From: a virus
Reading direction: 5' to 3' (one strand)
Length of the DNA stretch: 64,000 bases
IMG/VR virus record: IMGVR_UViG_3300023210_000013
Span: 1-64,000 of that record
A model generated the notes under the pieces. That model did not search any database. It was not told the origin of the DNA and saw only the letters and a list, made by a program, of their open reading frames with translations. The first letter of the stretch is position 1. The number at the start of each line of letters is the position of its first letter. The position numbers were made by a program, and so were the translations under genes. This document shows positions 13,168-38,880 of the stretch, piece by piece.

Positions 13168-16100
13168 TTAATCTCCAATATAAAAGCTTCTAGTTTGAAT
13201 CATATCTTCCCATTTCTTAATTTCATATAAGATTGGAACTATATCCATAATTTCTTTCTTTATTTTCATTTGATCAGCTCTGTAACCTCTTTGATAATAT
13301 ACATCCTTATTACCATACCAATCTTCATCATTACCCGTAATAGCATATCTTAAACCTGCAGTACCAAGATCCCAAGTCTTATCCATTACATTTCCAAATT
13401 CTCCTAATGCTTTAGTTGCAGCAAAAGGACTTTCAAAAAATGCAAGCGCATCAGACATTCCTAATAAAGGAATAAACAATTGTAGTTCATCTCTAGCTCT
13501 AGTAGCTTGATACAATGATAAATTCTTTAATCTTTTTACTAAATCACTATCATCATCATCGTCTTTCCATATACCTCTTAGAGTACTAATAATTGTAAGA
13601 ATAGAAATTAAAATTGCTAATTCAGCATTAGTTCTATGTACGTTTAAAGCAGCATTAATAAACTTTTCATCATTCTGAGAACCGTCATTTTTAAAACCTT
13701 TACCTCCTTTTGTAGAAGACTCCATCCAGCTTTGCATCATTGACTTTTCTTTTTCTTTATTTTTTGCTACATTTTTAACAAAGTATAAAACAAAATTAGC
13801 CCAAGAGTTATAACGGCCTTCCATCCATCCTAGATTTTCATCATAGTATCTTTTTTGATATCTAGCTCTAATAGCAGGTACAACCCACTTATGAAATTGT
13901 GCTAGTAATTTACCCCAAGTATGAACTTGAATTACCATTCTATCTTCATGAGCATAGTTACCGTGAATTTGTTTATTAACTTCACGGATCTTCATTCTTA
14001 TATCATATCTTACTTTATCAGTAAAACTTCCTGTTTCAGTATAGATAAGATTACCCCCTGCATCTTTTGCACTTATGTTTCCTTTAAACATTTTACCAAA
14101 AGTTGGTACATCTTTTTTAATTTTAACCATAGTTGTGAAACCTTCTTTCATAACTAATTTTTGATTTGCATCATCAAAATCAAATGCATCAAATAAAGTT
14201 GATAGCTCACCGGTTGCAGGATTAAGTATATACGTATCCATAAGCAAAGCCATTCCAACTTTAGTCTGAACATTATATTCAGCTGCATCTTGAAATACAT
14301 AACCTACATTTGCAAATCTTTGGAAGTAACTTACATAGTCTCCTTGTTGACCTTGTTCTCTAATATCTGATGAAGAATCCATCATTCTAAATAAATCTAC
14401 AAAAGCTTCATACTTACTAATAGGTTGATACGGATCATATTTAGTTCCTGTAGTTTTTTTAGCAACAGCATGTGCTGTTCTATTCCACATATCTTGAAGA
14501 GCTCTTTTATTAAATTCTTTAGAAGCTCTCATATAAGCATCTCTACTAAAGAATCTTTGACCCATCATTTCTATACCATTGTTAATCCTACCTAATACGT
14601 AGTTATTAAAGTTACCAAAAACATTAAATCCTACATAAGATAATGAACTGTATGCTAGCAACTTATCTACAGCTTTTTCAACCATACCTTTAGTTACTTC
14701 AGCATTGTTGTAAAAGACCATATTCATAAAAGCCCTTGCATGCTTGGCATTATTAGAATCTTTTCCTGGTGCTAAAGCTTCTACATCATTACCTTTCTTA
14801 CCAAATGTAGAAGAGAACTTTGCAGAAATCATTTTTTTATACTTAGACTTTGCAGGTTCTTTATACTTTCTATCTTCTATAACTTTAACAAAAGCAAGTA
14901 ATGTATCTTCTATACTAGTCATTGACTCATAAGTCTGAGCCATTACACTAAACTTCAACATCGTACTTACTACATCCCAACTTAACTCTTCAGCTTTTGG
15001 TTTACTTCTTAAAGCAATTTCTTTAGATTGTAATACTCTTAACTCTGATTCAAATTCACTTGATCCAATTTTATCATCTGCATAATCTTGTTTTAAATCA
15101 ACAATATCTTGTTGAATTTTTTCAACTGCCGCTTCATCTTTTAAAGATCCAACAAACATTATTGGTAATGAATCTATAACCTCCCCGTTTTCATCTACAT
15201 TAACTCTACTTAACCTTGTAGTTTCTGTAAAGAAATCCTTCATGCTTTGTTTTTGACGTGCTACATAAGATGTAACTACATTTGGATTCTTAGAAAGTTG
15301 TGTCATTAATTTACCTTGAACTCTAGGTGTTTTACCTAGCATAAAGTCTCTTACGTTTTCAGGAAGTTGTTTTAACATTCCGTTTTCATATTGCTCTTTA
15401 ACTACCAAGTAAAAAGATTTTCTAGCCATAGCTAAAGCATCATTAGGATCAGCTTCCATAATAGCTATATACTTATCACTACGTAGATCTATAGTCTCAC
15501 CATCAACAACTGTTATAGGACGTGCTTCTGTAAACTTTTTATCAGGAAACCAATTTCTTTTTTCTGCAACCATTCCGGTTGGTACACCATCAATTAATAC
15601 AGGTGAGTTGTATATAACAGTATTTCCATACTTAGCTTGAAATTCTGCTATCTGCTCATCAGTTATACCAGCTTTAAATTCCCATATACCAAAATCACCC
15701 AACGGTAAATACTCTTGATATTGTGATCTAATTTCTTTCCACTCTTCTGTAAACTTATGGAAGTCACCATCTGTTGGTGTAAGACCAAACATACCAGCTG
15801 GAGTTTCAGGACTTTTAAAAGCACTAAATGCTTTTTTCTTATAGTATAAATCTTTATTAAATGCTATGTCTGCTTTATCAGCGGTTTTAACATCCAGTAT
15901 TTCTTTATACTGTAATGGCACACCGTCTCCATCAACTGTTTCATTATACAATGCATCATATAGATCAGTATATTTTTGACCTAATTCAACAACATATCTA
16001 CCAGTATGATTACCGTCTTTATCAGTTTCTATTATAAACTCAAAAATTTCTTTATCATTTTTACCTGGAGATAACTTTCTTAAGTAAGCTCCGGCAGCAA

Positions 16101-18888
16101 TAATTTTTTCTTCTCTTTCACCAATTCTATCTAAAGATTCTTCTCTCTTTTGATGCCATAGTTTTTTCATTAAAGCAAGCAAAGTATCTTTGGATGTATT
16201 AATGTCTGTGAAGTTAAGAGTAGCTCCTGAAATTTTTTCTGCTTCTTGAAACAACATTTCAAATTCAGCATCTGTAAAATCTCTTGTGGTTTCATTTTTA
16301 GTAATAAACTTAACGTGGTCAATTATTGCTTGATCAGCTATACTTGGTACATTATTTCTATTGTTTTTACCAGCAACTCTTTTTAAAGTTAAACCTAACT
16401 TATCTTTTAATTTAATTTGAGAACTATTTAAGTTTCCATAAGTTGCAGAAACAGCTGTCAATCCATCAAATGAATCAGCAAATGCTTGAGTATTACGTGC
16501 TACTTGAATAAAATTCACATCACTTAAGTTCTTCTTATCAATTAAATATTTTTCTAATTTTTCAACTTCTCTTAAAGACTGTTGTAAAAATTCAGTATAA
16601 ACTCTAGATGCACTTAAACCATCACCAGAACGCAAAGCTTCCGTTGCCATTGTAATAGCAAGGTTTAATCTAACAATTGTATCTTCTTTGGTTTTATCCA
16701 TAGATATAGCACCTTTTACAGTCTTCAATACTTCAACACGTTTGATCATGTCAGCTTGAAAATTTTCTATACCTTTAAATAATATTTCATACTCAACACC
16801 TCCAGCATCATCTATTCTATCATTTTGATCTGCTGCTGCAACTACGTCATTGTAATCAGCATCTTCCATAATAGGATAGTCAACTGATTCTCTTCTTGCT
16901 TCTTGTATTTTATTCTTGGCTTTCTTGTCAGTATTTCTTTTAACAATTGCATTTACATAAGGTAAATTTTGACCCATAGGATGTGCTACTGGATCTTGTA
17001 TTTTTAATTCACCATTTATTAATTCTACATTGTAAGTAGTAACAGCGGTATCTGAATCTTCAAATTCATAACCCATGTTTTCAAGCATTCTTCTATTTAA
17101 GTTACTTTTAATTGCCTGTCTTGTTTGAGCAGGTAACTTTTGTATTCCTACTTTATTTTTTAAAATAGAACCTTCAGTTAAAGTAACTTCTTTATCATAC
17201 CCTGTTTGGATATCAATTATCTTTAGTTTACCCGCTTTGGTAATTATAACTAAATCAGCTTTACTTGCAATGTTAGTACCGGTTGTATCTAAGTAATGTA
17301 AAATTACATTTGGTATTACTACATCACCGTTTCCCTCCATTAACTTAATGTAAGTACCTAACTCATTATAAAGTTTTTCTGCTTGTTCTTTATTTAACGT
17401 AGTTGTTTTTGTACTTGCAACATCAATACTTTCTTTTAATATAATACTGTTTAATAAAGTATCTATATCATTTCTAAAAGCAATTTCTTCTTTTGTTTCT
17501 TTTGAGCCTAATACATCTCCTGAGATGACTTGGCTTGCTGACTTAATGGATTTACTTAGATTATCAAGTTGATAATATTTTCCATCTTTCTTATTTAATA
17601 TTACTATAGTATTACCTTTTGCTATTTCTGCTTGATTTGCAGATAAAGAATCAACAGACTCTTTGTCTGAAGATACTATATTAAACAAGTTTTTAATTAT
17701 TGCTTTTTGTGCAACACCCGCTTTGCTCATTGCTGAGTCTACTACTTTTTGTTTATCAGAAGATAAAGAGTATTTAACTTTTTTTATGTTTGATACTTTT
17801 AAATCAAATATTACATTGCTTGTATTAAGAAGTTTTGCAACATCTGAAAGATTTGCTGTAGACTTTATAGCAGATGTAGGTAATTTTATATCACCATCAA
17901 CTGTTATGTAATCATGCAAGTCTTGTATAACAGACATGAACCACTCAAGCATTTCTTTTACTTTACCTAAAAATGTTTTAGTAGGCTTTGTTTCATAATC
18001 ATTATCAAAATGTCTAGTTAAAGCTTGTGTTATTAATTCTAAGTCTCTTTGGTAATCAGTAAACCTTCCATTCTTAGTATTATATGCTTCATCTATTTGT
18101 TGTTTCAATATAGGGAAACTTTTTTTAGCTTCTTCTACAAGGGATTTAAATAGCTCAGGGTTGTCTAGTGCTAAACTGTCTGTAAAAGCGTGTAAGACTT
18201 CTTCTATTGCAGTCTCATTAGTTACTCTACCTTGAATTAAAACTACTTGCCCGTCATAATAAAAAGAATTAATGTTGGCAAAGTTTACTTTGTTTTTAGT
18301 TCCCGGATCTAATTTTTTATAATAAGCTTCAGCTTGTTTAACTGATACAACATTCATTCTTAACTCAGGAAACATTCTTTGTAAATGACCTAAAACTTTA
18401 ATAGTATGTGTACCGTAAGCTTTTCTATTTTCAGGTAGCATATCATTAAGACTAAACAAGTCTTCATTCACTACAACTCTATATGACTTTGGAGTTCTAA
18501 CAAGAGTAACTGACCCTTGAGGTATGTTGTTTTGACTAAGATATCTTAATGCTCTTTTATAGTTATATTGCAAAAACTCAGGAGATCCTTCTCTGGCATT
18601 AGGTGCTGTATTATTTATAAAGTAATCACCACCCAATTCATTAGATACACTTGCTATTTTTAGACGGCTTAAATTAGTTAGAACGGCTTCTTTAAAATTT
18701 TTCTGTTTTAAAGAAAGAGCAACCTTACTATCTTCCATCATTTGCAATGCCTCTTCTGTTGTAGGAAAAGTATCTTCTTTTGTTAAAGATTGCCATCTTG
18801 ATATAACATTGTTAACAGCAGATTCATTTGGAAACTCTTCTCTTAAAGCTTTATACTCAGGAAGATTTACATTATAACACTTACTCAT
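13168..18888 (-). CDS. large virion cargo/ejection protein with degenerate zincin and PD-(D/E)xK-like domains
   Basis: 1906 aa, directly downstream of the vRNAP gene; EEVLHAF (18184-18204); ADLVII..G.LKIIDIQT; hydrophobic C-terminal region typical of crAss-like cargo. Confidence 0.75.
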   Translation of the reverse strand: MSKCYNVNLPEYKALREEFPNESAVNNVISRWQSLTKEDTFPTTEEALQMMEDSKVALSLKQKNFKEAVLTNLSRLKIASVSNELGGDYFINNTAPNAREGSPEFLQYNYKRALRYLSQNNIPQGSVTLVRTPKSYRVVVNEDLFSLNDMLPENRKAYGTHTIKVLGHLQRMFPELRMNVVSVKQAEAYYKKLDPGTKNKVNFANINSFYYDGQVVLIQGRVTNETAIEEVLHAFTDSLALDNPELFKSLVEEAKKSFPILKQQIDEAYNTKNGRFTDYQRDLELITQALTRHFDNDYETKPTKTFLGKVKEMLEWFMSVIQDLHDYITVDGDIKLPTSAIKSTANLSDVAKLLNTSNVIFDLKVSNIKKVKYSLSSDKQKVVDSAMSKAGVAQKAIIKNLFNIVSSDKESVDSLSANQAEIAKGNTIVILNKKDGKYYQLDNLSKSIKSASQVISGDVLGSKETKEEIAFRNDIDTLLNSIILKESIDVASTKTTTLNKEQAEKLYNELGTYIKLMEGNGDVVIPNVILHYLDTTGTNIASKADLVIITKAGKLKIIDIQTGYDKEVTLTEGSILKNKVGIQKLPAQTRQAIKSNLNRRMLENMGYEFEDSDTAVTTYNVELINGELKIQDPVAHPMGQNLPYVNAIVKRNTDKKAKNKIQEARRESVDYPIMEDADYNDVVAAADQNDRIDDAGGVEYEILFKGIENFQADMIKRVEVLKTVKGAISMDKTKEDTIVRLNLAITMATEALRSGDGLSASRVYTEFLQQSLREVEKLEKYLIDKKNLSDVNFIQVARNTQAFADSFDGLTAVSATYGNLNSSQIKLKDKLGLTLKRVAGKNNRNNVPSIADQAIIDHVKFITKNETTRDFTDAEFEMLFQEAEKISGATLNFTDINTSKDTLLALMKKLWHQKREESLDRIGEREEKIIAAGAYLRKLSPGKNDKEIFEFIIETDKDGNHTGRYVVELGQKYTDLYDALYNETVDGDGVPLQYKEILDVKTADKADIAFNKDLYYKKKAFSAFKSPETPAGMFGLTPTDGDFHKFTEEWKEIRSQYQEYLPLGDFGIWEFKAGITDEQIAEFQAKYGNTVIYNSPVLIDGVPTGMVAEKRNWFPDKKFTEARPITVVDGETIDLRSDKYIAIMEADPNDALAMARKSFYLVVKEQYENGMLKQLPENVRDFMLGKTPRVQGKLMTQLSKNPNVVTSYVARQKQSMKDFFTETTRLSRVNVDENGEVIDSLPIMFVGSLKDEAAVEKIQQDIVDLKQDYADDKIGSSEFESELRVLQSKEIALRSKPKAEELSWDVVSTMLKFSVMAQTYESMTSIEDTLLAFVKVIEDRKYKEPAKSKYKKMISAKFSSTFGKKGNDVEALAPGKDSNNAKHARAFMNMVFYNNAEVTKGMVEKAVDKLLAYSSLSYVGFNVFGNFNNYVLGRINNGIEMMGQRFFSRDAYMRASKEFNKRALQDMWNRTAHAVAKKTTGTKYDPYQPISKYEAFVDLFRMMDSSSDIREQGQQGDYVSYFQRFANVGYVFQDAAEYNVQTKVGMALLMDTYILNPATGELSTLFDAFDFDDANQKLVMKEGFTTMVKIKKDVPTFGKMFKGNISAKDAGGNLIYTETGSFTDKVRYDIRMKIREVNKQIHGNYAHEDRMVIQVHTWGKLLAQFHKWVVPAIRARYQKRYYDENLGWMEGRYNSWANFVLYFVKNVAKNKEKEKSMMQSWMESSTKGGKGFKNDGSQNDEKFINAALNVHRTNAELAILISILTIISTLRGIWKDDDDDSDLVKRLKNLSLYQATRARDELQLFIPLLGMSDALAFFESPFAATKALGEFGNVMDKTWDLGTAGLRYAITGNDEDWYGNKDVYYQRGYRADQMKIKKEIMDIVPILYEIKKWEDMIQTRSFYIGD

Positions 18889-18892
18889 ATCA

Positions 18893-21800
18893 TTATAGTT
18901 TTATGCGGCATCCTTGGTCAACAAGAAATTCTTTTATTGTTTCAAAGTTACTTAATTTAAATGACTTTATGAAGCCATCTTGCGTTGTTCCTATCCCGGC
19001 AGCTTTTAATATCTCTTTGTTTTCTTTATTTTTATTTATATAATCATAAAAGAATTGTATTATTTCAGAATCACCGTCTGTCATACCAAGATCTAATTCA
19101 AGTTGTGTTCCTGGATCATCAACATCTACCTCTTCTATTTGAGACATTATAGCATCCATTTTTTCTTGATCTTTTTCTGTTAATTCAATACCTTTAGAAA
19201 GGCCTTTATTTGAAATAAAACTAAGCAACTTATCTGTTGGATCATTAACCTCTTCTGGACGTGCTGTAGCGTCTGCTATATTAACACCATCAATATCAAT
19301 GTTCTCTTCAGTAGCTATTCTATTTGTATTAGCAAAATTAGACATTTTATCATTTGCTTTTTCTGCACCTGAAAAATCAACATTATCAAAATCTACATTA
19401 TCTATTTCATCAAGACCTTCTATGTCATCAAAGTTTACTCCGTAATAATCATCCTTTGAAAACTCTCTTAACTCAGCTAAAGTTGGTCTATTAAAGTTTT
19501 CTGTGTTAAACATAAACCCAATAGCATTTTGTTTATAAGCACCTTTCAATTCTATTTTTTCATAAACAACACTGTCTGCTTCTACTCTACCGTTTAAAGC
19601 TGAAGGCATTAAAGTAACACCTAAACCTTTTCCTGATTTTTTAAAATCATTAGCTCTTACAAGTTTATAATAAGAAGTTGTTCTAGTTTGATCTGCATTA
19701 ATATCAGTCTTTGAAATAAATAATGAAAAAGGATATTGTGGTTTTTCATCACTAGTTCTAGTGTAAGTCAGATTATCTTCAAATATAGTTTCTTCATAAC
19801 TGTGTGGTGCTTTTGGACCACTTATAAAGTCTTTACTAAAGACTGCAATGTTTCTTGAATTAATAGCAGACTCACCATAGTTATTTACAAACTCATCCTG
19901 TAGTTCTTGAAGTGATACTCCAAAAACACTTTCATAACTTTTCTTACCTTGAAATGCTTGTACAGCATCCGTTGCTGAATCTAAATAATTCTCCATTATA
20001 AATGGAACTAAAGAATCAATTATACTTCCATTAGCGTATTGTAAACCATCTTTTACCATAGCATAATGAATTATGTTTACAGCATCAGCTCTAGTATCAC
20101 TTTGTCCATACAACTGGTGAAATCCATTTTGGATACGTAATTTTTCATTAGCACTAAGCTTACCAAAACTTCTAGATTGAATTAAGTTTAATCCAGTAGT
20201 GTTTGTTTTACTGTCTGCAGGATTACTAAATAAATAATAATCTAAGAAATAATTAGAAGTGCCTTCATGTTTTTCTCTTAGTTCTTCAAATATAGTATTT
20301 GCATTAAATTTAGTTTCTGCATTACCATATATAAACTCATTAGATAAAGAACCTCCAATTGCTGCAGCCGCTTCATCACTATTAAATACTCTATGCATAT
20401 AAGACTTCATAGTCAAATATGTAAGTAAGTTTTTAGATATGCCATCCATAACTTGAGCTGAAGCACTTTTCTTAGTATAACCCTCTACCCCAGCATAGAT
20501 CTTTTTAAAGTCTTCTGTTCTAGATAAAAATACTTTAGGTAATACTTCAGTACTAAATTCATTATATACTTCTAATAAATCCCCTACGTAATGTTCTTTT
20601 ATAGCAGACCTCATATCAAAAGGTCTTATTATTTTTTTAAATTCTTTATCATCTAAATACAGACCTAAAGTTTTTATAGCATTATCTTTTTCATTAAGAC
20701 TAATAAAGTCTTGACCAAATCCTGTATTAAGATTAAAGATTGGAATCATGTTATCTATAAACTTTTTGACATCCATAAAGTCAAGTATGGTTTCATAGAT
20801 TGAATATAACTCTTCATCAGTAGCATTAGCATTAACACCAGCAGCTAATGTTACATCTGTAACTTTAACTTGTGTTCCTTCTTTTACTTGAAGCTCTTTA
20901 AGTGCACCTTTAATTTCACTTTTAGCTGTCATAGGATCTTTCATGGCTTGTCTAATAGCTGCAACATTTACAAACATTGTTGCTGTATGTAGTGATACAC
21001 CCAGACCAATCATTGTTTCTACTACACCTATAGATGCTTTATTAAAACCTAACTTAGATAAAATTCTTTCTTTAGCATCATCTGTAGCTGCAGTAATAAG
21101 TGCTGATAATAAATACTGTGCTCTTGTTTCTTCATTTTTAACATTGGTTTCAAACCTATCATAGTTTATACCATTAATGTCAAGTGATCCCCATTTAGGA
21201 TTAAGAATAACTTCTGTTTCTTTTAAGAAGTTTATTACAACATTTCTTGGGACTACTGCTCCAATTAAATTAGAGTTTTGTTTTACATTAACGTGAGTAT
21301 AGAATTGACCAGGCAAACTATCAATAGGTAAATCTTCTTTTGAAAGTTCTGCTAATTGCGGAAACTGTCTAAATAAATTATCTACTTCTGCTTTTAATGC
21401 AACAACATCTGCTGGTTGATAAGCTACAGGTTTTTGACCATTAACTGATTCAGTCATACCTTTGTTACCTTGCAAAGCAGTTTTTAAATCTAGGAGTTGA
21501 TTATTAATAGCACCTTTATATGGTTCTGTTTTATAATCTTTTTTATATTGTTTGTACTCAGCAAATGTTCTTGGTAAGTTTAATGTAGTTAAGGCATCTA
21601 ATGTATCTGCAGTAAAACCAAATTTTTTAATTAATTCTTCTTTTACTTCCGGGTCTAAAACTCTTGATAAACTTGGACGCGTTGTCTCAAATTTATATAG
21701 AGCATCATATAAGTAAGATCCTTTTTTACCTGTTAATTTATTTTGATAAACTATGTAGTCACCAAAACTTTCTTCTTCTGAAACATTGGCTCTACCATAT

Positions 21801-24800
21801 TCTATAAATTGCTTGTTCTTGACATACCATTCTTTTACATGAGTAAAAACTTTATCAATATCAAAATCCGCTCCTGATACTTCTACAAGTTCTTCTGGAA
21901 ATACAGCTGTTGAACCAAGGTATACAGGATCAAAATCTACTATTCTTACATTAAGAGAAGAGTGTTTATCTTGAGAAGGTATTCTTACAGCAAACATTTT
22001 TGCAACTGCTGCAGGCATTCTACCTGTACCATTCTCTATAAGATCCATTACTTCTTTATAATGTGCGGGTACAATACCCTCAGCATATCTTTCATTTGTA
22101 GCAACCCAAGTACTTGGATCACCTTCTGTAACATATTCTACTAAGTCTACTCTTAGTCTATCAATAACAGTTACTCCTTCAGGATTTGTTTTTAAAGCTT
22201 CAGCTAACAATTCAAAACCATTTGGTTCTCTTAAGTCTATAGTTATTTTAGCGTTACCGCTTTTAACATAAGCTTTTCTTCTAACAACTTCTTGTTTATC
22301 TAAATTACCTTCTGCATCTAAACTATATACTTTTCTAATTACAGATTTTCCAAAAGATGATTTTAATGCTAAAGCATGTCCCTCAACTTTTTCTTGTAGT
22401 ACACCTTGACTAAAGTAAGATAAAAAGAATTGCTCAAACTTTTTAATAGCTAATGGTTGATTAAGCTCATACTTGTTTGTTCCGTTCTCATCAGTAAAGA
22501 ATTCAATTTGATTACTACCAGCGGCTGAAGACTTTAAGTTTGCCTGAGCTGTACGTAAGAATGTAGCATAACTAGGTGCTACTTCTCCGTTCTCAACCAT
22601 TGTATCTATAATGTCATTATCCAAGTTTTGGATAGTCTCAAACATTAAATCTTTTTTCTGACTAAACTCAAACTTAATACCAGCTCCTGTTAGTCTATGG
22701 TATTCTTTTCTAATATATCCTACAGGTACTTCCTTACCATTTAATAATACTGTCTCATCATCACTTTGCTCACTAGTAACTATAGTTTTAATCTGATTAG
22801 GTAAAGTAACCTTTGTTTTATTAGAAGGGTTGACCTGTTGTAAACCAAAATCTTTTGCATTTAATGGCGTTATGTCATCTAACGTTAAAGGATTATTTGT
22901 TTCACTTAGTCTAGCTAATGTTTGTACTTTTTGCTTAAACATTTTAGAAGCAGAGACCGGAACTAAGAATGCAATCTTTTCAGGATTGTTTCTTTCAAAT
23001 TCTTCTAACATTTCTCTTGCAGCATTAAGCTGTTCCATTCCTTGTTTAGCTACTCTTTTTCCATTTACTACATCAGATGTTTCTTGTTTAGTTAATGGTG
23101 TAGTTGACATTTTATCAAATACATTCCCATCACCATAAACATATTTCTTTGAGTTTAATACAGCATTTTGTTTTAAGTATCCATTCTTACCAAACCATTC
23201 TTCAGATGTAATCTCAACACCCGCATCAACTTTGTCCATTAACTCAACATAAGCATCATTTAATTCAGCTAAACCAAAAGCAAAATATCTTGCTCCTTTT
23301 GCTGTATAATAAGTTTGTGCATCTGTTTTTTCTCCACCTCTGTTTCCTGGTTGAGCTCCATCAGTAAATCTTTGTTCAAACAAATCATCTTCTACTAATA
23401 TCATAGAAATAGAACCTTCACCTAAAGTATGGTATATACCTTTAGCTGGATCTACTACTGTTGTTTCTACTGGAGTAATTGCTCTGTTCTGCATTTTAGC
23501 TCTCTTAATAGGATCTACAAATGCATCTTTAAATAACCTAGCTTCTTCACCTAATATTAATTGGTTGATGGCCATTGTATTTAAATAATTACTTAAAACT
23601 ATTTGTGCAATGTTTACTATTTGAGTACTATTATCAAGACCTAATTCTTGTTTAGCTCTTAATGCTTTTTTAGACTTAGGGAAAAAGCCTCTAGCTAAAA
23701 GAGAAATTCCTTGGAACTGAGTATTACTTTCATCTGCTGATAATTGTCTAGCAATATTTTCATCTTTAGCAAGACTTGCAAACTCATCTACTAGAGATTC
23801 TAGTCCTTTTACTATAGATCCTCCTTTGTCAAAACCTGATGAATCAAACGCTTCTCCTTTTTTAGCTTTTTCTATTAAGGTATCTTGAGTAGCTTTATCC
23901 ATTAACCAAGCTGTCTTAAAGAATTTAAATCCTCTACCTTTATCTGGTCTTGTGGATTCAACATCATTATAACCAAGGATACCTTGTGGTCCTTCTATAC
24001 CTTCTTTAAAGTTTTCTTTTATTGCATTGTATTCTCTTTCTATTTCATTAATAGTAAGATTAACTGTGTTAGGTAGAATGCTGTATTTACCAATACCTTC
24101 ACCAGACTTGTCATTAACAGTTTGGATAATAGGAAGCTTAACCATATCATTGGTATTTGATGCTTCCATAATTCTTAAAAGAACAGGTGCTATAGCTTTA
24201 GTTACTTCTAGCCCATCTTCAATATAAGTAATTTTACTATTTGTTTCACTAGTTGTATTGTAAGAAGCTGTATACATGTCTATTAACATTGTTACAAATT
24301 CTTTTGATGTCATTTCACCATAAGCAGATGCTTCATCTGTCATTGCAGCTTCAGATAAATTATCAATTTTATCTTCTGTTAAATCAGTAATCCTTGTTCC
24401 TGAGTTTCTTTCAATAACAAGCTCATTATCCGCAGCCATTTGTATAAAGGCCGGGTTGTTTAATAATAGGTTATTACTTAAAAATGGAGTAGTCTCTTCT
24501 AAAGTTTCTAAAAAGTCTACATCATTTAATTGTTTTATTCTATTAGAATGGAATGTTTGTTTTTGATGAGCATATATTAGTTTACCATTTACATCTACAA
24601 ATACAGTAGCACCAATTGCTTCATCAAAGTTTGCATTACCTAAAGCTAATTTATTTAACCTTGTACTCATACCTTTACCTGCATCATCTACAAATAAATT
24701 TTCTGGAGCTGGTTGTCTTTTCTTTGTTCCTTTAATTACTTGAGTTACATCAAGTCTATTAACAAACTGTTCTGCATCTTCTTTTGTAATAAGATTACTA

Positions 24801-27800
24801 TCACTACCTATTAAAGCCATTTCTCTTTGGAAATTTGTTGACTTATTTTTAAGAGCTGAAATAATACTTACTTCTAAATAACCTCTACTAAAACTAACAC
24901 CAATTGCTTCATAAATTGCTTGTGATAAATACTCAGCTTGAAGTCTTATATCTTTATTAGTCATGTTGCTTTTACCTAAAACACCTTGCAAAGTTCTCAT
25001 AACTTGAAGTGCTTTGGTTAAAGTCTCAGGATTAGATTTATAATTTTCAAACTTATCACCATGAAACTTTTTCCATGCATCAATTTGTGCATTAGCAGCA
25101 TCTGACTGTGTAGCTGAAATAATTAAAGCCTTTCCTGTTACTGGATCTTTTAAGTGGAAGTTATATCCAAATCTACTATTTTGATAAGTCTTTATAAAGT
25201 CATGATAAAGTTTAGAATCTTTAACCTCTGTGGGTAATGCTCCTGACTCAATGACATCTTCCATAGTAGTATTAGAATCTGTAATACCCACTGTATTTAA
25301 AAATCTATCAATAACAGCAGATGTGTTAACTGATCTTCTAGAATGATAATACATTCTTTTAAGGATTTCAAAATGTGATGTCTGATTCATTGCTGCTAAC
25401 ATTAAACCTGTATGAGCATCAACGTAGTTTGCATGAACTTTAATTTTCTCTCCATTCAATAGTTCAGTATTACCAAACATGTCTGTTGAATCAATAGTTG
25501 TAGAACTAATAAATAATTTTACACGTTGACTTGGTTTGATACCAACTTCTTGGCTTTCCATTCCATATTGAGAAGTACTTCTGCTTCCAACAGATTGTTC
25601 TAGTTCATCAATTTCTTCTTCTTCTCTTTCAGTTTTTATTTGAAAAAGCTCAAGGTAATCTTCTACTTCTTTAATTATTGCTTCACCATCATTTAATTCT
25701 AATGCTTGATAAATTTGTTCTAGTTTATCAGCTTGAGAATCTGATAAATTTTCACCACTGTATTGTGCATTACCTGGATTGTATAAGTCAGCGTAGTCTG
25801 CTAAAACAGATCCTATATATATTTTATCTATTTCTTCTTGTTCAGTTTCTTTTCCAGAAAATTTATCAGCAAGTGCTTGTACTTTTTGTGCATTTACTTT
25901 TTCATTTCTTTCATCTATTCTTTCTGCATAAGTATTAGCAATTGTTCTTATTAAGATATCTGCAGTAGCAGGATCTAAATATAACTCAGAAGCAAATACT
26001 TCACCGCTAATAGACTCATATGGGATTGCTTTTAAAGCTTCTATTGTTACATCCCCTTCAACATCTCTTGTATAAAAGTTTTCTTGTATAGAGCTACCTC
26101 TATATTTACCTGAATCTATATTTTCAAATACATTAAGTAAATCACTTTTACCTTTAAAACGTTTTAATGATCTTTTAATCCATTCAACTATTCTGTTAAA
26201 GAATGATTTAATAGTAGATGATGTTTTGGTGCTTCTAGGGTTTTGCTTAAACTTAGCAAACTCATCAGCCATATACTCTTCTAAATATTCACGTTCTAAT
26301 CTCTTAGCGTTCATATCTCCATATAAAGGATTAAGACCTTTAAATTTACCTAATGCTTCATCAAGAGCTTCTTGTGAACCAAGCTTACTTAACAATTCAC
26401 CTTTAGCAATTCTAAGTAAATTAGATTGTTCTTTGTCTGTAAGTAACATTCTAAATACAGCGTGAAAAGCTTCATGATAAGCTATCAAAGTAGATGGACT
26501 TGTATATATAGTTCCTTCTCCTTGTAACCCACCTGATAAGTTTCTTAAAGACATAACAAATTTACCAGCAGTAAAACCGTTAGCTTTCAGTCTGTCTTTA
26601 ACTTCATTAATATCTTTTACAGTAATAAAACCAGGAAGATTATTTTGAGCCCAAGAAATAAATTCATCAATTTTTAAATCTTCAGATATTGATTCTTGAG
26701 TATCAACTATTTTAAAAGCATTTTTACGTTGTGCTTTTAATTCTTTAATTTTACTTGTAATATTTTTATACTCTTCAGATTCTTGTTTTAAATTATATCT
26801 GTTTAAACCTTCAGCTTTAGCTCTGGTATTTATTTCAGATTCCAAAACTTTCTTTTGTTTTTCAAGAGTTGTTATTTGTTCTTCTAATGTTTGTTCACTC
26901 TCATTCTTTTGTGTTTCAGCTGCAATTTTATTTCCTTGTCTCCAAACTTGAAACTTATCTTTGTTGTTTCCAACTGTAGGAATAGAAGAATCCAGTCTAT
27001 CTCTAACATATCTTTCAAGAAGATCAAGCTCATTCATATAGAATTTATACCTACTGTCAGATCCAAGATATTTCATTATCATATCTTTCCCTACCTCCTT
27101 GGTAATCTTTCCTGATGCAACGCTTTTTTCTACTACGGCTATATAATCTTCTATTGAGTTTTCAGCTTCAACAGCTTCTTGACCTACTAAGACACCACCC
27201 TCAACTCTGATAGATACAACGCCTTCAGTGTTACCTCTATATGAGTTTTGTTTTGCTATAACTAATTCAGCCTGAAGAGCTTTAAATTTCTTTAAATCTT
27301 TAGTTTGTATAGAACCATCTTCAGACCTTAAGTCTTTTATCTGTTGTTCTACATTAGCCAGAGCATCCTCATACTTTTGATTAGGATTTACTTCTTTATT
27401 TATAGGACCCGCATCTTGTTGAGCTTTTCTATCAACTAATATTTGATTTATTAAACCTGTATTAGCTTCAAATATAGCAGCTTCTTGAGGAGTTAATGGC
27501 CCAGCATTTTGAATTTTAGTTGCAAGGTTTTCTAAAGTTGCTTCTGAAACTTTACCTGTTTCTACAAACTCATCAAACTCACTTACAGGTTTTTCTTTAG
27601 GTCCAGGTATTATTTCTTCTACCTCTGTTAAGTTACCTGTGAAATTAAAATACATCTTTTGACTATGTCTAACTCTAGGGTCAATATCAGTAACAGTTTT
27701 TTCTATCATTTCCTGAGCCGTAGCTGTAGTATCAAATACAACTGTCATAGAATCTCCTGAAAGATTTACTTTGTTAGGTACAGTTTTATTGTATACAACA

Positions 27801-30800
27801 ACTTTTGGATTTGCATTAATTTTTGCAAACAACTCTTCTACTAACATAGGGTTGTCTACTAATGCATCTATATTTCTAGCTTTAACAGATGCAAATGCAA
27901 CAAGAACTGTTTTAGCACCTTGACCTTTTTTATCTTTTACGCTTAACTTAAGAAGTATGTCTCCATTATCTTGTACTTTTAAATCCACAAAAGAATTAGG
28001 CACACTTGCCAAATAGAATCCACTATTAAAAGAATCATTAAAGTCATAGTTGTATTTAGAATCTACAACTTTGCCATCTTTAATATTATCGTCAACTGTA
28101 TCTTTTGCTCTTTGAACAAGTTTAGAATAAAGAACTGTTCTTTCACTTTCTGATACAGCTTTTTGTTTAAGTTGTACTAAAGTAATAGCTCCACTTGGAG
28201 ATTTAACAACAGCTACATATCTACCAGTTATTGAAGCAACATAAGATAGATTTGATTCTCCACTTTCTAATTCTGATTTTTTTAATTGATCTTCAACTGA
28301 TTGTATAAATTCTACTTCTTCATTTACATTTTCTATATCTGTAGTATAATTTGTAGATATACTACCATCTTTGTTTTTAGTATTTGTAATAATTATAGTA
28401 TTACCATCAAAGGTTCCATATACTAAATCATCTAAACTTTTTGCTATACCATCAAAACTAAATTTACCTTGCGTCAGCTTTAGTTCAGTATTTGTTTGCT
28501 CTTGGAATTCTGCCAATGTCATAGTAGCATTATTTTCCATAGCATCTAACTTTCCTGTAAGAGCTGCTTGTTTTATAACTTGAGATTTTAAATCTTCTAT
28601 GCTTGAACCTTCTGCTAAAATGTATGCGTTTAAATTATTATCAGTAAACTCATTTATACTAATGCTTTTTCCGCTTTTACCTTTAAAGCTAAAATGATTA
28701 TTTCTTACAAATGCAATAGAACCATCCCAACCAGCAGGATATAAGTCAGCAACTTTTTCTGCTGCTTCTTGTGACAAACTAATTTGCACCATATACTTAT
28801 CTCCATTTTTAGAAATAAATGGATTCTCTGGTTCTACACCTAACTGATAAGATGTTCCATCTTTAGGTATATTTAAAACTACCCTAACTATAGACTCATT
28901 TAATTCTTGCTCTGTAAGTCTTTCTAATATTTTTTGTAATCTTGCTTCAGCTTCCGCAACAGTTTCTCTTAAACCTGTTGTTTCATTATTCATTTGTTTA
29001 GCATAGATACCATTAATATCACGGTGATCTATCTTAGTCATGTTAGCAGAATACTTTACTTCAGCAACTTTAAGTTGTTCTTTAGTATATAAAGTATTAA
29101 ACCCTGCTTCTTCTACATAAAAAATAGATTCTAGTTTATCATTTTTAGATGCATCTAATTTTTCAAATGGAATTAATTTTAAAAGATTGCCTTTTTTAGT
29201 AGAGCTTTCTGTTCCAAGTACAATGTATTTGTTTCCATCAACATCAACTACCTCATCACCATACTTTATTTCTTGACCATCAAAGTTGTAAGCTTGCTCA
29301 CTAGGAACTATTTTAAGAAGTCTTTCCCAAGCACTCCATGCTTTGTCCATTTCATCTTGACTAGCACCGTAAGAGTTTCTAGCATTAGCTTCATCTAGAA
29401 ATGTTTGAGGTAATGTTTTACCTTTATTATCTACTATACTATATATGAAATCAGGTTCATTTGATCCTTCTTGGTAAACTGTTCTTTTTACAATGTTAAC
29501 ACCCGGTCCTAGTTGAGCTACTTTAGTAGTATTAGTGTTTACTATAGATTCTAAACCTTGTTCAGACTCAGCAGTAAATATACTTGAATCAATACCACCT
29601 AATGCTAAAAGGAATTTTACTGGTTTACTTTCAATAGATTCAGCAACCCAAGCTTTAAAACCTTCTTCAGCATTATAACTTTCTCCTTGTTCATCAAGTG
29701 TTTTAAACCACAGTCTTTTAAGACTATCTAAACCATTGACAGCATTATTACCTTCTGTAGAGTTTAACCATTCTTCTAAGGATACAATTGAATTACCCTC
29801 ATTAATATTTTTAATTTTATAAGAAGCATACATTTGCTCCAAGACATCCTGTGATACAGGAGATTGTCCTTCTAAAAGAATATTTGCATCAGGGGCACTG
29901 TTTATATCTTTAAAATCAGATTCATCTAAATTAGTTTCAACAGCATCATCAAAATTATCTTTTGACTTAGGTGCTTCAGTAGCTTTCTTTTTAGGTTTAT
30001 CAGTTTTTACTTCTTCTTCTTTTACTTTAAATCCAGAAGTCTCCTTGTAAATACTTATAAGAGCATTTATTTTTTCAAATATTTCTTTATCTATTTCAGG
30101 ATTAAGTACACCTTTAGCTGAAATAAATTGAGTTATTGATGTAACATCACGCGTTTCTATAAAAGCTTTAAACTGTTCATCACTTATTACAATACCTAAT
30201 TGTTTAAGTTGTTGAAGTAATATATTAGCATGCTCATCTGCAACACCAGCTTCCATATTTTTTTCAAATATATCTTTGGCCTTACTATATAAAACTTTAA
30301 ACTGATCACTTAATCTATCTACTAAATCTAAAACTTTTTCAGGGTCTCCAAATAAAGCAACTGTTCTATCAAACAATTGAGATCTTGTATCTAAGTTATT
30401 ATGATCAAGAAGTTGAGCTAATACTTTGTCTACTTCACCTCTTTTAATATAACCGTTTTTATTATTACTTCTAGCACCTAGTACTTTTAAATAATTAATT
30501 AACGGAGTTCTTAATTTATTAGATTTACTTCTATCATATACTTTTGAATCTTTATCATATATACTATCTAAAGCAACTTTATATGTTAATAGACTTGTAA
30601 GTAATTTTTGTTTTTGCTTAAGGTCTTTAGTTGTAAGCTTATCTTTATTATCAGTATCCTGTAGAGTTTTTATCTCTTTCATTAACATGACTACCTCTTG
30701 ATCAATAGTATCACTAGTTAGTAGTTTAGTTAAGTCACCTGCTTGAAGATTACTTAATACATCAGAAGATTCTAAAGCTGCCTCTAGACCAAATCTTCTT

Positions 30801-33182: not shown

Positions 33183-36100
33183 TTACTTACCTTGAATAAT
33201 TGATGGTTTTATTCTTTTTTGTTCTTTCAAATTTTTTGCACTAAGATCAGCTAAAGACGCTCTATAGTTTGCTACTATTCTATCTACTTCATTAAGACCA
33301 GCAGGTTGCCCTTGCTCATTTCTAATTAGTTGAATAGGTTGCTGTCCCATTTTTTCAAATAGACCCGTTGTAGCATTAACACCTAACATCTCCATAGAAG
33401 AATAAAAAGCACCATCTTTATTGAATACTCTAAATGATCCTGCATTTTCTTTATACATGTCGTAAAGATAACTTTTATCTGGAGACATTTGAATTTTTTG
33501 ATTAACAGAAGAGAAATTATATTTGTCTAAGTTTAAATCTACTACAGCATCTGACTGTGGAAACATCATTGTTATTTCACTATACTTTTTAATTCCAGCA
33601 GCACTCTGAAGTCCAACTGGAGTTTTTGCTGCAGTTGATGCAAAGTCTTTTAAATACTGATCAGTATAAGTAACTTTCATTCCTGACATTATTGTACCAT
33701 CTTCTAAAGTTTTTACTACAGGTCTCATTTCAATACCCATAGAAAACTTTTTACTAGCAGCTGCTTTAGGATCTAATAAATATCCTCTAATATCTCTTAA
33801 ACTTTCACCTAGTATTTGATTAGCAGTTACATCATTTGTCCCATCTAATTCTTCATCTGATAATCCAGATGGAGTAATTATTTTTTCTCCTGGAGCATTA
33901 AATTGATCCACTAAGTTTTTAAGATCTGTATATACTTCTGGATTAACAGCTATAGAATTTATACTAAATGTACTTTTTGTACCACCATATGTATATAAAT
34001 TTGAAGCATTCATATCATCTAGTTGAACACCTCTAAAATAAGCATCAGCAGATAGTGGTTGAAATAATTTATTTTCAGGATCTAATCCTTGTGCATTATA
34101 TGATTCATTTAAAGTAGAATTTAAAACTTGTCTTTGTTGTGCATAATATTTTTTAGCATCTTCTCTAGCTTCATTTTCTACAAATATTGTATCACCCCAC
34201 ACATACTCATCAATTTTTTCATCCATATAATCTGCAATTCCAGGGAATATTGTAGCAGCCTGATATGTGTTATTACCTTTATCATCTCTTCTTCCTCTAC
34301 CTTCTATATAATCCGCATCTTTAATTGAACCTTTTTTGGCTTTTGCTATATAGCGTTCAATAAATTCTTCTTCTTCTAAGACTGTTCCATTATTAACAAT
34401 TTCAGGTACTCCAGCATCTGTAGCAGCTTTAGTGCTAAGACTAGATATTGTTTTAGAAGCATCCCAATTCTTTTGAATAGTTTCTTTACTTACTTTATCC
34501 CAATGTAATAATTGATCAGTTTCTCCTGCTATTCTATCACTAAGTTGAACTAAACTGTTATAACCAGGTGATGTTAAAACTCCAGGATTTGTTTTATTAA
34601 GTTCAGTTAATTCACCAAAACTTTTCTTGTAAAGATTTTCTAGTTCTGCAGCGTTCTCAGGTTTATTAAGTAATTTTGTAATTTGTTTTATATTACCTGT
34701 TTCTGTTTTACCGTTTATCTCAATACTAATAATACCTGTCTGCTGTGCAACAGGTAAATCAGATTGTTTCAATTCAAATAAAGACGTAATAAATTCTGGC
34801 TTCTTTGCATTTACAGAAGCTTCTTTTTTGCGTAAGTCTTCTGCATTTCTTGCTAATGGATCTTCTATCTCTTCTGTGCTTTCAGCAATTGTAGAACCTC
34901 CATCAGGTCCTGTCACTCCATCAAATATAGAAGCAGCAACAAAAGCAGGATTAATTATTTCACCTTTTTTATTTACGTTACCTTCTATTTTTCCTTTTAG
35001 TATAAGTTCATTTCTTCTATTAGAACTTGCATTGTTATCTCTAGCTAAATTATACTGATGTTGTATTTGCATTTTGGTATAAGGATTCTCCATTGATATA
35101 GTTTGAGAATAATCTCTTTTACTATATGATGTAGCCGCTCCTAAAATGTCACTGCTTAGATTATAATTCATAAGCATGTTGTAAGCAAAGTTTAGTGCAT
35201 CAGTATTTTCATCTGCTTCACCCATTCTTTGCAAGTCTCCTTCATTTCTTTTTAGTGCTTCATCTGAAGTTTCAAAAGCCTCAAAAGCTTCAAGCATTGC
35301 TTTATGCTCATCACTATCAGGTATAATACCTTCTTCCTTTTCATAACGTTCCCAATTTTGTTTAGCTTGTAAAGCTTTTTCAAATTGATTTCTAAGAATA
35401 GGATTTGCTTTTTCATTTCTAGCTCTTAAATCTTCTAAAGTACTTTGAGCCCAAGCGTTCTTTCCTTCTCCAATACTGCTGTATTGTCCATTTTTAAAAC
35501 CAATTTCTGCATGATTTCTTGCAGAAACAAAACCGCTTGTTCTATAAGCATCAATAACTTTAGGATCTTCCATTAAGGTTTTCATCAAAAAGTTATAAGC
35601 ACCAGGTACTTGAAGAGAACCATTCTTTTGTCTTATGATAAAAGGATCACCTTTCTTAACTGGTAAATCCATTTCAACATCTTCAAAACCAGCATCCTTT
35701 AGAATCTTCATTGACATAGTTTCTAAGTCTACATTCTCTACATAAGTAGGTAAACCTGCTTTTAAAGCATCATCTCTATTGTCATTTTTGAAATCTTCCA
35801 TTTGGTAATTCATTGCCTGAATACCTGTGGCCCAATATTTTTTTCTTTCTTCAGCACTAGCAGATGCTTTTAAAGAACCTGCTAATTGCATATTTCTTTT
35901 ATACTGAGAGGTAAAAACCAAATCTTTAACTATCAAGTCATCCTCATAAAAAGGTTTGAATAAGGATTGAGCAGAGTCAACATTTTGACGTATGGATAAA
36001 TCCATTCCTGATAGCTTCTCTATTCTAGGGATTAGTTGTTCAGTATATTGATTTCTTGCATCTATTGTGTCTTCTCTTGACATATCTGCATAAACAACTT

Positions 36101-36245: not shown

Positions 36246-36249
36246 AATA

Positions 36250-36263
36250 CTAAATTACTAAAA
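36250..36263 (-). promoter_or_regulatory. possible phage promoter motif variant
   Basis: - strand TTTTAGTAATTTAG immediately before ATG 36245. Confidence 0.35.
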
Positions 36264-36304
36264 TTTATTAAGTTTTAAAAACTTTATTTATACACTTTTT
36301 AGGT

Positions 36305-38878: not shown

Positions 38879-38880
38879 AA

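What the first reader, a model, noticed from the sequence alone, without database searches (positions are those of the whole stretch)
18877..18910. Only two cysteines in ~9,200 aa of cargo, at the adjoining C- and N-termini of the two giant proteins
Reading the translations, the 695, 857 and 1020 aa proteins have no Cys. The 4761-aa vRNAP has one, fifth from its C-terminus (QGCRIKL, 18908-18910). The 1906-aa protein has one, fourth from its N-terminus (MSKCY, 18877-18879). Cys exclusion fits unfolded ejection through an oxidising periplasm. The two survivors suggest a head-to-tail disulfide (or shared metal site) that chains the proteins into one ~6,700-aa thread for ordered ejection, released in the reducing cytoplasm. 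External tail proteins in the same window are Cys-rich, so this is not a genome-wide bias.
Basis: partly seen in the sequence, partly recalled or inferred. Interest (0 to 1): 0.75.

Follow-up and report, generated by a model that had tools for sequence, protein, structure and literature searches.

The report
Terminal cysteine pair links crAss cargo
The two giant proteins that this crAss-like phage most likely packs and injects (its RNA polymerase and a partner) contain one cysteine each, placed at the two ends that face each other, and well over a hundred relatives keep this arrangement, which points to an end-to-end disulfide tether that has been seen so far only in one unrelated cyanophage.

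Summary
Five consecutive minus-strand ORFs (695, 857, 1020, 4761 and 1906 aa; 9,239 aa) hold two Cys against about 98 expected. One is 5th from the C-terminus of the 4761-aa protein. The other is 4th from the N-terminus of the next protein.

This is not chance:
- All 57 homologues of the giant have exactly one Cys, 2-6 residues from the C-terminus.
- 96 of 102 close homologues and 86 of 89 distant representatives of the partner have Cys at residue 3-8.
- All 71 loci that show both ends have both Cys.
- All 16 junctions in 12 reference crass-like phages fit.

The Cys sit only at real chain ends. Where genes are fused (the gp47-like and gp50-like halves here; gp50-gp49 in p-crAssphage) the junction has none. 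A middle protein has one at each end.

Cryo-EM of cyanophage A4 shows a disulfide between proteins with this same signature (gp27 Cys1715, gp26 Cys5). The best reading is therefore a head-to-tail disulfide, inferred and not shown.

Cys depletion of ejected proteins is already known for N4-like phages.

This scan has flagged the same pattern on at least 54 other genomes. I found no paper describing it for Crassvirales.

The parts
18908..18910 (-). Codon of Cys4757, the only Cys of the 4761-aa vRNAP giant, 5th residue from its C-terminus
   Evidence: It is the only nearly invariant residue, with one Gly, in an alignment of the last 500 aa of 37 relatives that averages 16% identity.
18877..18879 (-). 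Codon of Cys4, the only Cys of the 1906-aa RNAP-associated protein
   Evidence: Invariant in alignment A2 of 38 relatives. Present at residue 3-8 in 96 of 102 close homologues and 86 of 89 distant representatives.
18841..18888 (-). Conserved N-terminal motif M-[AS]-[KR]-C-x-N-[KR]-N-x-x-E-[YF]-[KQ]-A-L of the 1906-aa protein
   Evidence: Column counts over 83 distinct N-termini: N at +2 in 80, N at +4 in 72, E at +7 in 71. The AF2 model puts residues 1-9 in an extended segment before the first helix.
18896..19075 (-). C-terminal module of about 60 aa of the giant (four short helices) that ends with ...K-x-C-[YIL]-[LI]
   Evidence: In the AF2 model of the last 500 aa, residues 441-500 have pLDDT 85-92. 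A low-confidence stretch of about 120 residues precedes them. The Cys lies in the last turn of the last helix.
18893..33178 (-). 4761-aa giant: a gp47/g067-like N-terminal half fused to the gp50/g066-like catalytic vRNAP
   Evidence: tblastn and phmmer matches to crAss001 gp50 (6e-11) and gp47 (2e-5). A profile of 26 giants matches gp47, gp50 and phi14:2 g066. One Cys only.
21854..21868 (-). Catalytic DFDID motif of the vRNAP, residues 3771-3775
   Evidence: GADFDIDK here, against GSDFDIDK at phi14:2 gp66 residue 1361 and GSDFDVDK at crAss001 gp50 residue 1483.
25979..26281 (-). Approximate place (residues about 2300-2400) where the gp47-like and gp50-like parts are joined; it holds no Cys
   Evidence: Offsets of the matches. 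No Cys anywhere except residue 4757, and the same in all 57 homologous giants. The position is approximate.
13168..18888 (-). 1906-aa RNAP-associated protein (gp49/g065 type)
   Evidence: tblastn to crAss001 gp49. The A1 profile matches gp49 at 1e-61, phi14:2 g065 at 6e-21 and the C-terminal part of p-crAssphage gp44 at 3e-33.
33183..40968 (-). Three Cys-free ORFs (1020, 857 and 695 aa), probable cargo or ejection proteins
   Evidence: 0 Cys in 2,572 aa. Their position between the muzzle-like 2041-aa protein and the giant matches the Cys-free pairs of four Suoliviridae genomes, Fpv20 gp31/gp32 (0 Cys each) and crAss001 gp46. No sequence match was found.

Best explanation
The two cysteines form an inter-chain disulfide inside the assembled virion. 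It ties the small helical C-terminal module of the 4761-aa polymerase giant to the N-terminal segment of the 1906-aa partner. The two gene products then behave as one 6,667-residue unit.

The bond plays the part that a peptide bond plays in phages where the genes are fused. Because each Cys lies only 2-6 residues from a chain end, the joined chain stays almost linear. It could be co-packaged one-to-one and pulled through the tail as one partly unfolded thread.

The near-absence of other Cys keeps the pairing unique and avoids stray disulfides during transit through the envelope. In the reducing cytoplasm the bond would open and free the polymerase and its partner.

Shown here: the Cys pattern, its conservation, and its dependence on being at a real chain end. 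Shown elsewhere: such a bond exists in phage A4, and crAss001 virions contain disulfides. Inferred: the bond itself in this phage, the thread, the order of ejection, and the reductive release.
For: (1) Conservation. All 57 giants have a single Cys, 2-6 residues from the C-terminus. 96 of 102 close and 86 of 89 distant partner homologues have Cys at residue 3-8. All 71 IMG/VR loci with both ends have both Cys, in 60 distinct junction sequences. Those loci hold 72 Cys in 203,699 aa upstream and 71 Cys in 136,548 aa downstream.

(2) Logic of ends. In three-part phages the first protein has only a C-terminal Cys, the middle one has both, and the last has only an N-terminal Cys. This holds for phi14:2 g067/g066/g065, crAss001 gp47/gp50/gp49 and DAC15 61/63/62. 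In crAss001, gp47 and gp50 lie on opposite strands, so a signal in the DNA at the gene junction cannot explain the pattern.

(3) Fusion test. No Cys lies at the fused gp47-gp50-type junction here or in the 57 homologues. None lies within about 180 residues of the fused gp50-gp49-type junction in p-crAssphage gp44.

(4) The terminal Cys persist where internal Cys are many.

(5) Precedent. Cryo-EM of A4 shows the disulfide gp27 Cys1715 to gp26 Cys5 (PMC12002296). On the genome record, gp27 (1717 aa) has one Cys at -3 and gp26 (1114 aa) has one at +5, MSKHC.

(6) crAss001 virions hold structural disulfides in the tail and portal vertex, and gp47, gp49 and gp50 are in the virion by mass spectrometry (PMC10172136).

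(7) Lys or Arg commonly precedes the Cys at both ends. This would favour a reactive thiolate; that is my inference.
Against: - No direct evidence exists for a disulfide in any crass-like virion cargo.
- Assembly takes place in a reducing cytoplasm, and many of these phages live in anoxic habitats.
- A4 gp27 and gp26 show no sequence or fold similarity to the proteins here, so the precedent is an analogy.
- Some cargo proteins carry an unpaired terminal Cys: p-crAssphage gp47, crAss002 gp30, and the N-terminus of cr8_1 protein 19920.
- One homologue, P0117 (2940 aa), starts inside the giant without an N-terminal Cys. Its contig could not be fetched, so a real split without a Cys pair is not excluded.
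Confidence: 0.62

Rival explanations
1. The two termini dock on each other without a covalent bond, or share a metal ion. The Cys would be key contact or ligand residues of that clasp and not partners in a disulfide.
For: Both ends are conserved motifs of 12-17 residues, not bare Cys. The C-terminal module is a folded helical unit. In A4 the C-terminal helix of gp27 inserts into a cleft of gp26, and the disulfide is described as only a further stabiliser. His occurs at -4 in 12 of 42 distinct C-termini.
Against: One Cys per chain and no other conserved ligand (His at -4 is a minority; no second Cys) make a poor metal site. Cys is the one invariant residue while its neighbours vary, which fits chemistry specific to the thiol. 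The only solved case shows a disulfide.
Confidence: 0.17
2. Each terminal Cys links its protein to some other partner (portal, capsid interior, another cargo protein, or a second copy of itself) and not to the neighbouring chain.
For: Unpaired terminal Cys on smaller cargo proteins: p-crAssphage gp47 at -2, crAss002 gp30 at -8, cr8_1 protein 19920 at +5. crAss001 tail and portal-vertex proteins use disulfides.
Against: It does not explain why the first protein lacks an N-terminal Cys, why the last lacks a C-terminal Cys, or why both Cys vanish together at fused junctions.
Confidence: 0.08
3. The Cys mark processing or recognition sites, for instance for the zincin-like protease proposed in the partner protein or for a packaging signal, and make no link.
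For: Drobysheva et al. (bioRxiv 10.1101/2020.03.07.982082) propose that fused polyproteins are cleaved and that gp65 orthologues carry a zincin-like protease domain.
Against: The fused junctions, where cleavage would be needed, have no Cys. The separately encoded ends, which need no cleavage, have them.
Confidence: 0.05
4. Chance survivors of a general purge of Cys, or a by-product of nucleotide signals at the gene junction.
For: Only the fact that the two Cys codons lie 29 nt apart around a 4-nt intergenic gap.
Against: Positional probability is about 2-4e-6 in this genome alone. The pair was found in 71 of 71 loci. It is conserved across junction sequences that share little else. The rule holds for crAss001 gp47 and gp50, which are on opposite strands.
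Confidence: 0.01

Closest known systems
Cyanopodophage A4 (Anabaena phage A-4L) ejection proteins gp27 and gp26, pre-ejectosome cryo-EM (PNAS 2025, PMC12002296)
   Same: - Adjacent genes on one strand.
- The upstream protein (1717 aa) has a single Cys, 3rd from its C-terminus.
- The downstream protein (1114 aa) has a single Cys at residue 5, in MSKHC (here MSKC).
- A C-terminal helix docks on the next protein and is fixed by that disulfide.
   Different: - No detectable sequence or fold similarity to the proteins here.
- A4 has no virion RNA polymerase.
- It has one junction only.
- The paper does not describe the Cys as a rule that follows gene splits and fusions.
RNA-polymerase cargo block of cultured crass-like phages: phi14:2 g067-g066-g065 (gp66 is the vRNAP with a crystal structure) and crAss001 gp47-gp50-gp49
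   Same: Homologous proteins, the same catalytic DFDxD motif, and the same place in the structural module. gp47, gp49 and gp50 were detected in crAss001 virions by mass spectrometry. The terminal-Cys rule is the same.
   Different: There the block has three proteins and two Cys-tipped junctions. Here the first two are fused into one 4761-aa protein, so only one junction remains. The papers I could read do not mention the cysteines.
Cys-depleted ejection proteins of N4-like phages (N4 gp50, DEV gp71-gp73; PMC11445570)
   Same: Giant virion RNA polymerase and ejection proteins almost free of Cys, explained there by passage through the periplasm.
   Different: Those proteins are reported to lack Cys altogether. 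No terminal pair and no tether is described.

Membership tests
Crassvirales-type vRNAP cargo block (phi14:2 g067/g066/g065; crAss001 gp47/gp50/gp49) | Catalytic DFDxD motif of the two-barrel virion RNAP | tested here: met
   GADFDIDK at residue 3771 of the 4761-aa protein aligns with phi14:2 gp66 residue 1361 and crAss001 gp50 residue 1483.
Crassvirales-type vRNAP cargo block (phi14:2 g067/g066/g065; crAss001 gp47/gp50/gp49) | Sequence homology of all three parts (gp47-like, gp50-like, gp49-like) | tested here: met
   phmmer and profile matches: gp47 at 2e-5 to 5.5e-10, gp50 at 6e-11 to 4e-18, gp49 at 1.8e-17 to 1e-61. PHROGs, Pfam and direct searches of PDB sequences gave nothing.
Crassvirales-type vRNAP cargo block (phi14:2 g067/g066/g065; crAss001 gp47/gp50/gp49) | Position at the end of the structural module, after the muzzle-type protein and small cargo proteins | tested here: met
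   Gene order. The 2041-aa protein matches crAss001 gp44 (3e-6) and PHROG virion structural families.
Crassvirales-type vRNAP cargo block (phi14:2 g067/g066/g065; crAss001 gp47/gp50/gp49) | Proteins present in the virion and injected | not testable with these tools
   Known by mass spectrometry for crAss001 (PMC10172136), and annotated as MS/MS-based for phi14:2. Inferred here.
Head-to-tail disulfide-tethered ejection proteins (A4 gp27-gp26 type) | Sole or nearly sole Cys within a few residues of the C-terminus of the upstream protein and of the N-terminus of the downstream protein, in adjacent co-directional genes | tested here: met
   Cys at -5 and +4, one per protein, with a 4-nt gap. A4 has -3 and +5.
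Head-to-tail disulfide-tethered ejection proteins (A4 gp27-gp26 type) | A disulfide bond between the two Cys in the virion | not testable with these tools
   It needs non-reducing gels, mass spectrometry or cryo-EM. No tool for predicting complexes was on hand.
Head-to-tail disulfide-tethered ejection proteins (A4 gp27-gp26 type) | Homology to A4 gp27 and gp26 | tested here: not met
   phmmer E above 0.1 for all pairs. Foldseek of the N-terminal 800 aa against the PDB gave no A4 chain. The claim is 'works like', not 'is a homologue of'.
Cys-depleted ejected phage proteins (N4 gp50 type) | Cys frequency far below that of the phage proteome | tested here: met
   2 of 9,239 residues against 1.06% elsewhere in the genome.

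The most novel reading that the evidence does not exclude
Across crass-like phages, inter-chain disulfides stand in for peptide bonds wherever the ancestral giant polymerase polyprotein has been split. The whole RNA-polymerase module would then always be packed and ejected as one continuous thread. Its reduction in the host cytoplasm would be the switch that releases and activates the polymerase. This would be a general rule of 'split gene, rejoined protein', and it can be read from sequence alone.
Probability: 0.4. Interest if true: 0.8.

Novelty: new variant of a known kind. Interest (0 to 1): 0.66.

Why it matters
How podophages store and inject megadalton amounts of protein, and in what order, is still open for crassviruses, the most abundant phages of the human gut. 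Bayfield et al. could not resolve gp47, gp49 or gp50 in the capsid.

A covalent end-to-end link would explain three things. It would give equal stoichiometry. It would let a 6,700-residue cargo pass a narrow tail as one string. And it would explain why gene fusions and splits in this module are tolerated so freely in evolution.

The idea can be tested directly on cultured phages, and perhaps on reduced versus non-reduced mass-spectrometry data that already exist.

The pattern also gives annotators a practical rule. It pointed to a probably misplaced start codon in crAss002 gp33, and it separates true gene splits from assembly frameshifts.

Tried and rejected
- Near-identical DNA in the phage collection: none.
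- Related loci sought with the C-terminal 600 aa of the giant: none.
- PHROGs, Pfam and PDB sequence searches of the cargo proteins: no hits. Identification therefore rests on tblastn, phmmer and my own profiles.
- Fully fused forms of giant and partner. The 'longer' search (3337-5000 aa) found none, which is weak evidence because a full fusion would exceed 6,000 aa. In the scan of all representatives, every match that includes the partner's residues 1-4 starts at residue 1-5 of the target.
- Apparent extra splits of the giant in L010, L042 and L062 are ORFs broken across reading frames (two overlap, one has a 110-nt gap). They have no start codon near the break, and a sister contig, L011, is intact. 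I treated them as assembly artefacts.
- P0093 is a short partner with a C-terminal Cys. Its 50-54% relatives are full-length with one Cys, so it is probably a frameshifted tail.
- P0117 is a 2940-aa piece without an N-terminal Cys, starting about 200 residues before the gp47/gp50 boundary.
- Thioredoxin idea. The genome has a thioredoxin-fold ORF next to the block, but it has a signal peptide and no CxxC motif, so I dropped it as a redox partner.
- I did not fold a construct spanning the junction.
Full report
**What is in the window**

On the minus strand a run of large ORFs follows the tail genes: 2041 aa, 1442 aa, 695 aa, 857 aa, 1020 aa, 4761 aa (18893-33178), 1906 aa (13168-18888) and 393 aa.

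- The 695-, 857- and 1020-aa proteins have none.
- The 4761-aa protein has one, residue 4757 (codon 18908-18910, ...DQGCRIKL).
- The 1906-aa protein has one, residue 4 (codon 18877-18879, MSKCY).

The genes are separated by TAA-TGAT-ATG. Tail proteins nearby are Cys-rich: 30 in 2041 aa, 28 in 560 aa, and 12 in 185 aa.

The record is a complete 115,581-bp phage genome. Outside the cargo block its ORFs hold 1.06% Cys. About 98 Cys are therefore expected in the 9,239 cargo residues, and 2 are seen (P about 1e-39). The placement of both within a few residues of the facing ends has a chance of about 2-4e-6.

**What the proteins are**

PHROGs, Pfam and PDB sequence searches were blank. tblastn against phage genomes linked both giants to the 'RNA polymerase' genes of crAss001 and its kin.
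- The 4761-aa protein carries GADFDIDK at residue 3771. This matches the catalytic motif of phi14:2 gp66 and crAss001 gp50.
- Its C-terminal half aligns collinearly with gp50. A stretch around residues 2229-2362 aligns with the C-terminal part of crAss001 gp47.
- Its length, 4761 aa, is close to gp47 plus gp50 (2341 + 2412 = 4753). It is therefore a fusion of the first two proteins of the three-protein block known from phi14:2 (g067, g066, g065) and crAss001 (gp47, gp50, gp49).
- The 1906-aa protein is the third member, of the gp49/g065 type.

gp47, gp49 and gp50 were found in crAss001 virions by mass spectrometry and assigned to the capsid cargo zone (PMC10172136). That the proteins here are packed and injected is inferred from this homology.

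**Conservation of the two cysteines**

A search with the 1906-aa protein returned 102 homologues from 99% down to about 22% identity.
- 96 have Cys at residue 3-8, in the motif M-[AS]-[KR]-C-x-N-[KR]-N-x-x-E-[YF]-[KQ]. For most it is their only Cys.
- The six without it start at other positions and look truncated.

A search with the last 860 residues of the giant returned 57 proteins of 2940-5609 aa. Every one has exactly one Cys, 2-6 residues from the C-terminus. In an alignment of the last 500 residues of 37 relatives (mean identity 16%), that Cys and one Gly are the only nearly invariant positions.

In 83 IMG/VR loci, 71 show both the end of the upstream gene and the start of the downstream gene.
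- All 71 have both Cys, in 60 distinct junction sequences.
- They hold 72 Cys in 203,699 upstream residues and 71 in 136,548 downstream residues.

A scan of 1.8 billion representative proteins with the first 450 residues found 89 further proteins of at least 1000 aa.
- 86 have the N-terminal Cys, including proteins with up to 22 internal Cys.
- Seven proteins of about 2800-4000 aa also have a Cys at or near the C-terminus, as expected for middle pieces.

The terminal Cys are thus selected for in their own right. They are not what a purge happened to leave behind.

**The rule of ends**

| Phage | First protein | Middle protein | Last protein |
|---|---|---|---|
| phi14:2 | g067: one Cys, the last residue | g066: two Cys, residue 3 and the penultimate | g065: one Cys, residue 3 |
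| crAss001 | gp47: one Cys at -3 | gp50: Cys 5 and -9, plus one internal | gp49: one Cys at residue 5 |
| DAC15 | same scheme | same scheme | same scheme |
| IAS virus | same scheme | same scheme | same scheme |

In crAss001, gp47 and gp50 are on opposite strands, so no signal in the DNA at a gene junction can be the cause.

Two-part genomes split like this window have a Cys at -2 to -4 of the giant and at residue 3-5 of the partner. These are Flavobacterium phage Fpv20 and the Suoliviridae cr1_1, cr118_1, cr113_1 and cr50_1.

Intestiviridae are split the other way.
- p-crAssphage gp45 ends ...SCM, and gp44 (polymerase fused to the gp49-like part) starts MSC.
- cr8_1 behaves alike.
- crAss002 gp33 fits if translation starts at Met33 (MSC...). 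That suggests its annotated start is 32 codons too early.

In all, 16 of 16 junctions in 12 reference genomes fit.

**The fusion test**

If each Cys belonged to its domain for local reasons, fused proteins would keep a pair inside. They do not.
- The gp47/gp50-type boundary maps to about residue 2300-2400 of the giant. No Cys lies there in this phage or in any of the 57 homologues.
- In p-crAssphage gp44 the gp50/gp49-type boundary maps to about residue 2400-2600. Its eight Cys are at 3, 341, 343, 1235, 1404, 2220, 3105 and 3308.

The Cys therefore appear only where a polypeptide really ends and another begins.

**Anatomy of the two ends**

An AF2 model of residues 1-800 of the partner (pLDDT 77) puts residues 1-9, with Cys4, in an extended segment ahead of the first helix.

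A model of the last 500 residues of the giant shows a confident module of about 60 residues with four short helices (pLDDT 85-92). A poorly predicted stretch of about 120 residues precedes it. The Cys is in the last turn of the final helix.

Lys or Arg commonly sits just before the Cys at both ends.

**Comparison with what is known**

Depletion of Cys in ejected proteins is established for N4 gp50 and the Schitoviridae ejection operon. It is explained there by passage through the periplasm (PMC11445570).

A look-up in this scan's earlier notes showed the same terminal-Cys pattern flagged on at least 54 other genomes. It also pointed me to cyanophage A4. I checked that lead.
- The paper reports a disulfide between Cys1715 of gp27 and Cys5 of gp26 in the pre-ejectosome. 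It stabilises the insertion of the C-terminal helix of gp27 into gp26 (PMC12002296).
- On the A-4L genome, gp27 (1717 aa) has a single Cys at -3 and gp26 (1114 aa) a single Cys at +5, in MSKHC.
- These proteins show no sequence similarity to the ones here. A Foldseek search of my model did not find them. The relation is one of mechanism, not demonstrated descent.

crAss001 virions do hold disulfides in the tail and portal vertex. Four full-text searches found no paper that mentions cysteines of the crass polymerase block. The vRNAP structure preprint has no instance of 'Cys'.

**Verdict**

The best explanation is a head-to-tail disulfide that rejoins separately encoded pieces of the polymerase module. 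I put it at about 0.6. A non-covalent or metal clasp at the same ends is the main rival. The thread, the ordered ejection and the reductive release are reasonable but untested.

Open points:
- unpaired terminal Cys on some smaller cargo proteins.

The mechanism has one structural precedent, so this is a new variant of a known kind. Its reach across the sampled families and its behaviour at gene fusions and splits are not described in any paper I could find.

Noticed in passing
window 16969-17601 (minus strand; residues about 430-640 of the 1906-aa protein): The AF2 model of the N-terminal 800 aa gives weak Foldseek matches (E about 3e-3, prob 0.99) to PD-(D/E)XK nucleases of the Cas4, RecB and lambda-exonuclease type. 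This fits the conserved D...DLKTSK motif. If real, it is a Cas4-like fold without the usual Fe-S cysteines.
   Followed up: partly
window 40993-45321 (minus strand, 1442 aa): A protein with a lysozyme or endolysin-like stretch (PHROG matches at residues 797-919) has only two Cys, at 937 and 942. Small internal Cys pairs also occur in crAss001 gp45 (390, 398), phi14:2 g069 (369, 378) and A4 gp28 (1036, 1039).
   Followed up: no
window 11214-11612 and 11912-13093 (minus strand): Just downstream of the cargo block lie two ORFs with signal peptides. One is a 132-aa thioredoxin-fold protein (PF00085, 1.5e-5) that lacks the CxxC active site. The other is a 393-aa Cys-free protein whose sequence looks like an outer-membrane beta-barrel.
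   Followed up: partly
L090:17088-17190 (Bacteroides phage crAss002 gp33): The annotated start gives a first Cys at residue 35. An internal Met33 gives MSCTP..., the same N-terminus as p-crAssphage gp44 (MSCGN...). The start codon is probably annotated 32 codons too early.
   Followed up: partly
L084 (p-crAssphage gp47), L090 (crAss002 gp30), L092 (cr8_1 protein 19920): Smaller cargo-type proteins carry a terminal Cys with no obvious partner on the neighbouring gene: -2 in gp47, -8 in gp30, and +5 (MTKKC) in 19920. They may pair with themselves or with something else.
   Followed up: no
P0117 (2940 aa, ENA metagenome): A homologue of the giant that begins at the equivalent of residue about 2165. 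It has one C-terminal Cys and no N-terminal Cys. It is either a gene call truncated by an assembly error or a real split without a Cys pair.
   Followed up: partly
L094 (cr113_1 gp39 and gp37): In-frame stop codons inside annotated cargo and polymerase-associated genes, consistent with the stop-codon recoding reported for some crass-like phages.
   Followed up: no
P0115 and P0116; P0031, P0034, P0040 and P0076: Some relatives have extra domains inserted in these proteins. Giants of about 5,500-5,600 aa carry helicase families (PF13604, PF05970, PF13538). Partners of about 2,200-2,300 aa carry PF18760. The terminal Cys are kept in all of them.
   Followed up: no
L085 (IAS virus gp055 and gp056): The polymerase appears as two overlapping ORFs, with ambiguous bases in the record. 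gp055 has the expected N-terminal Cys and gp056 the expected C-terminal Cys, so this is probably one gene broken by sequence errors.
   Followed up: no
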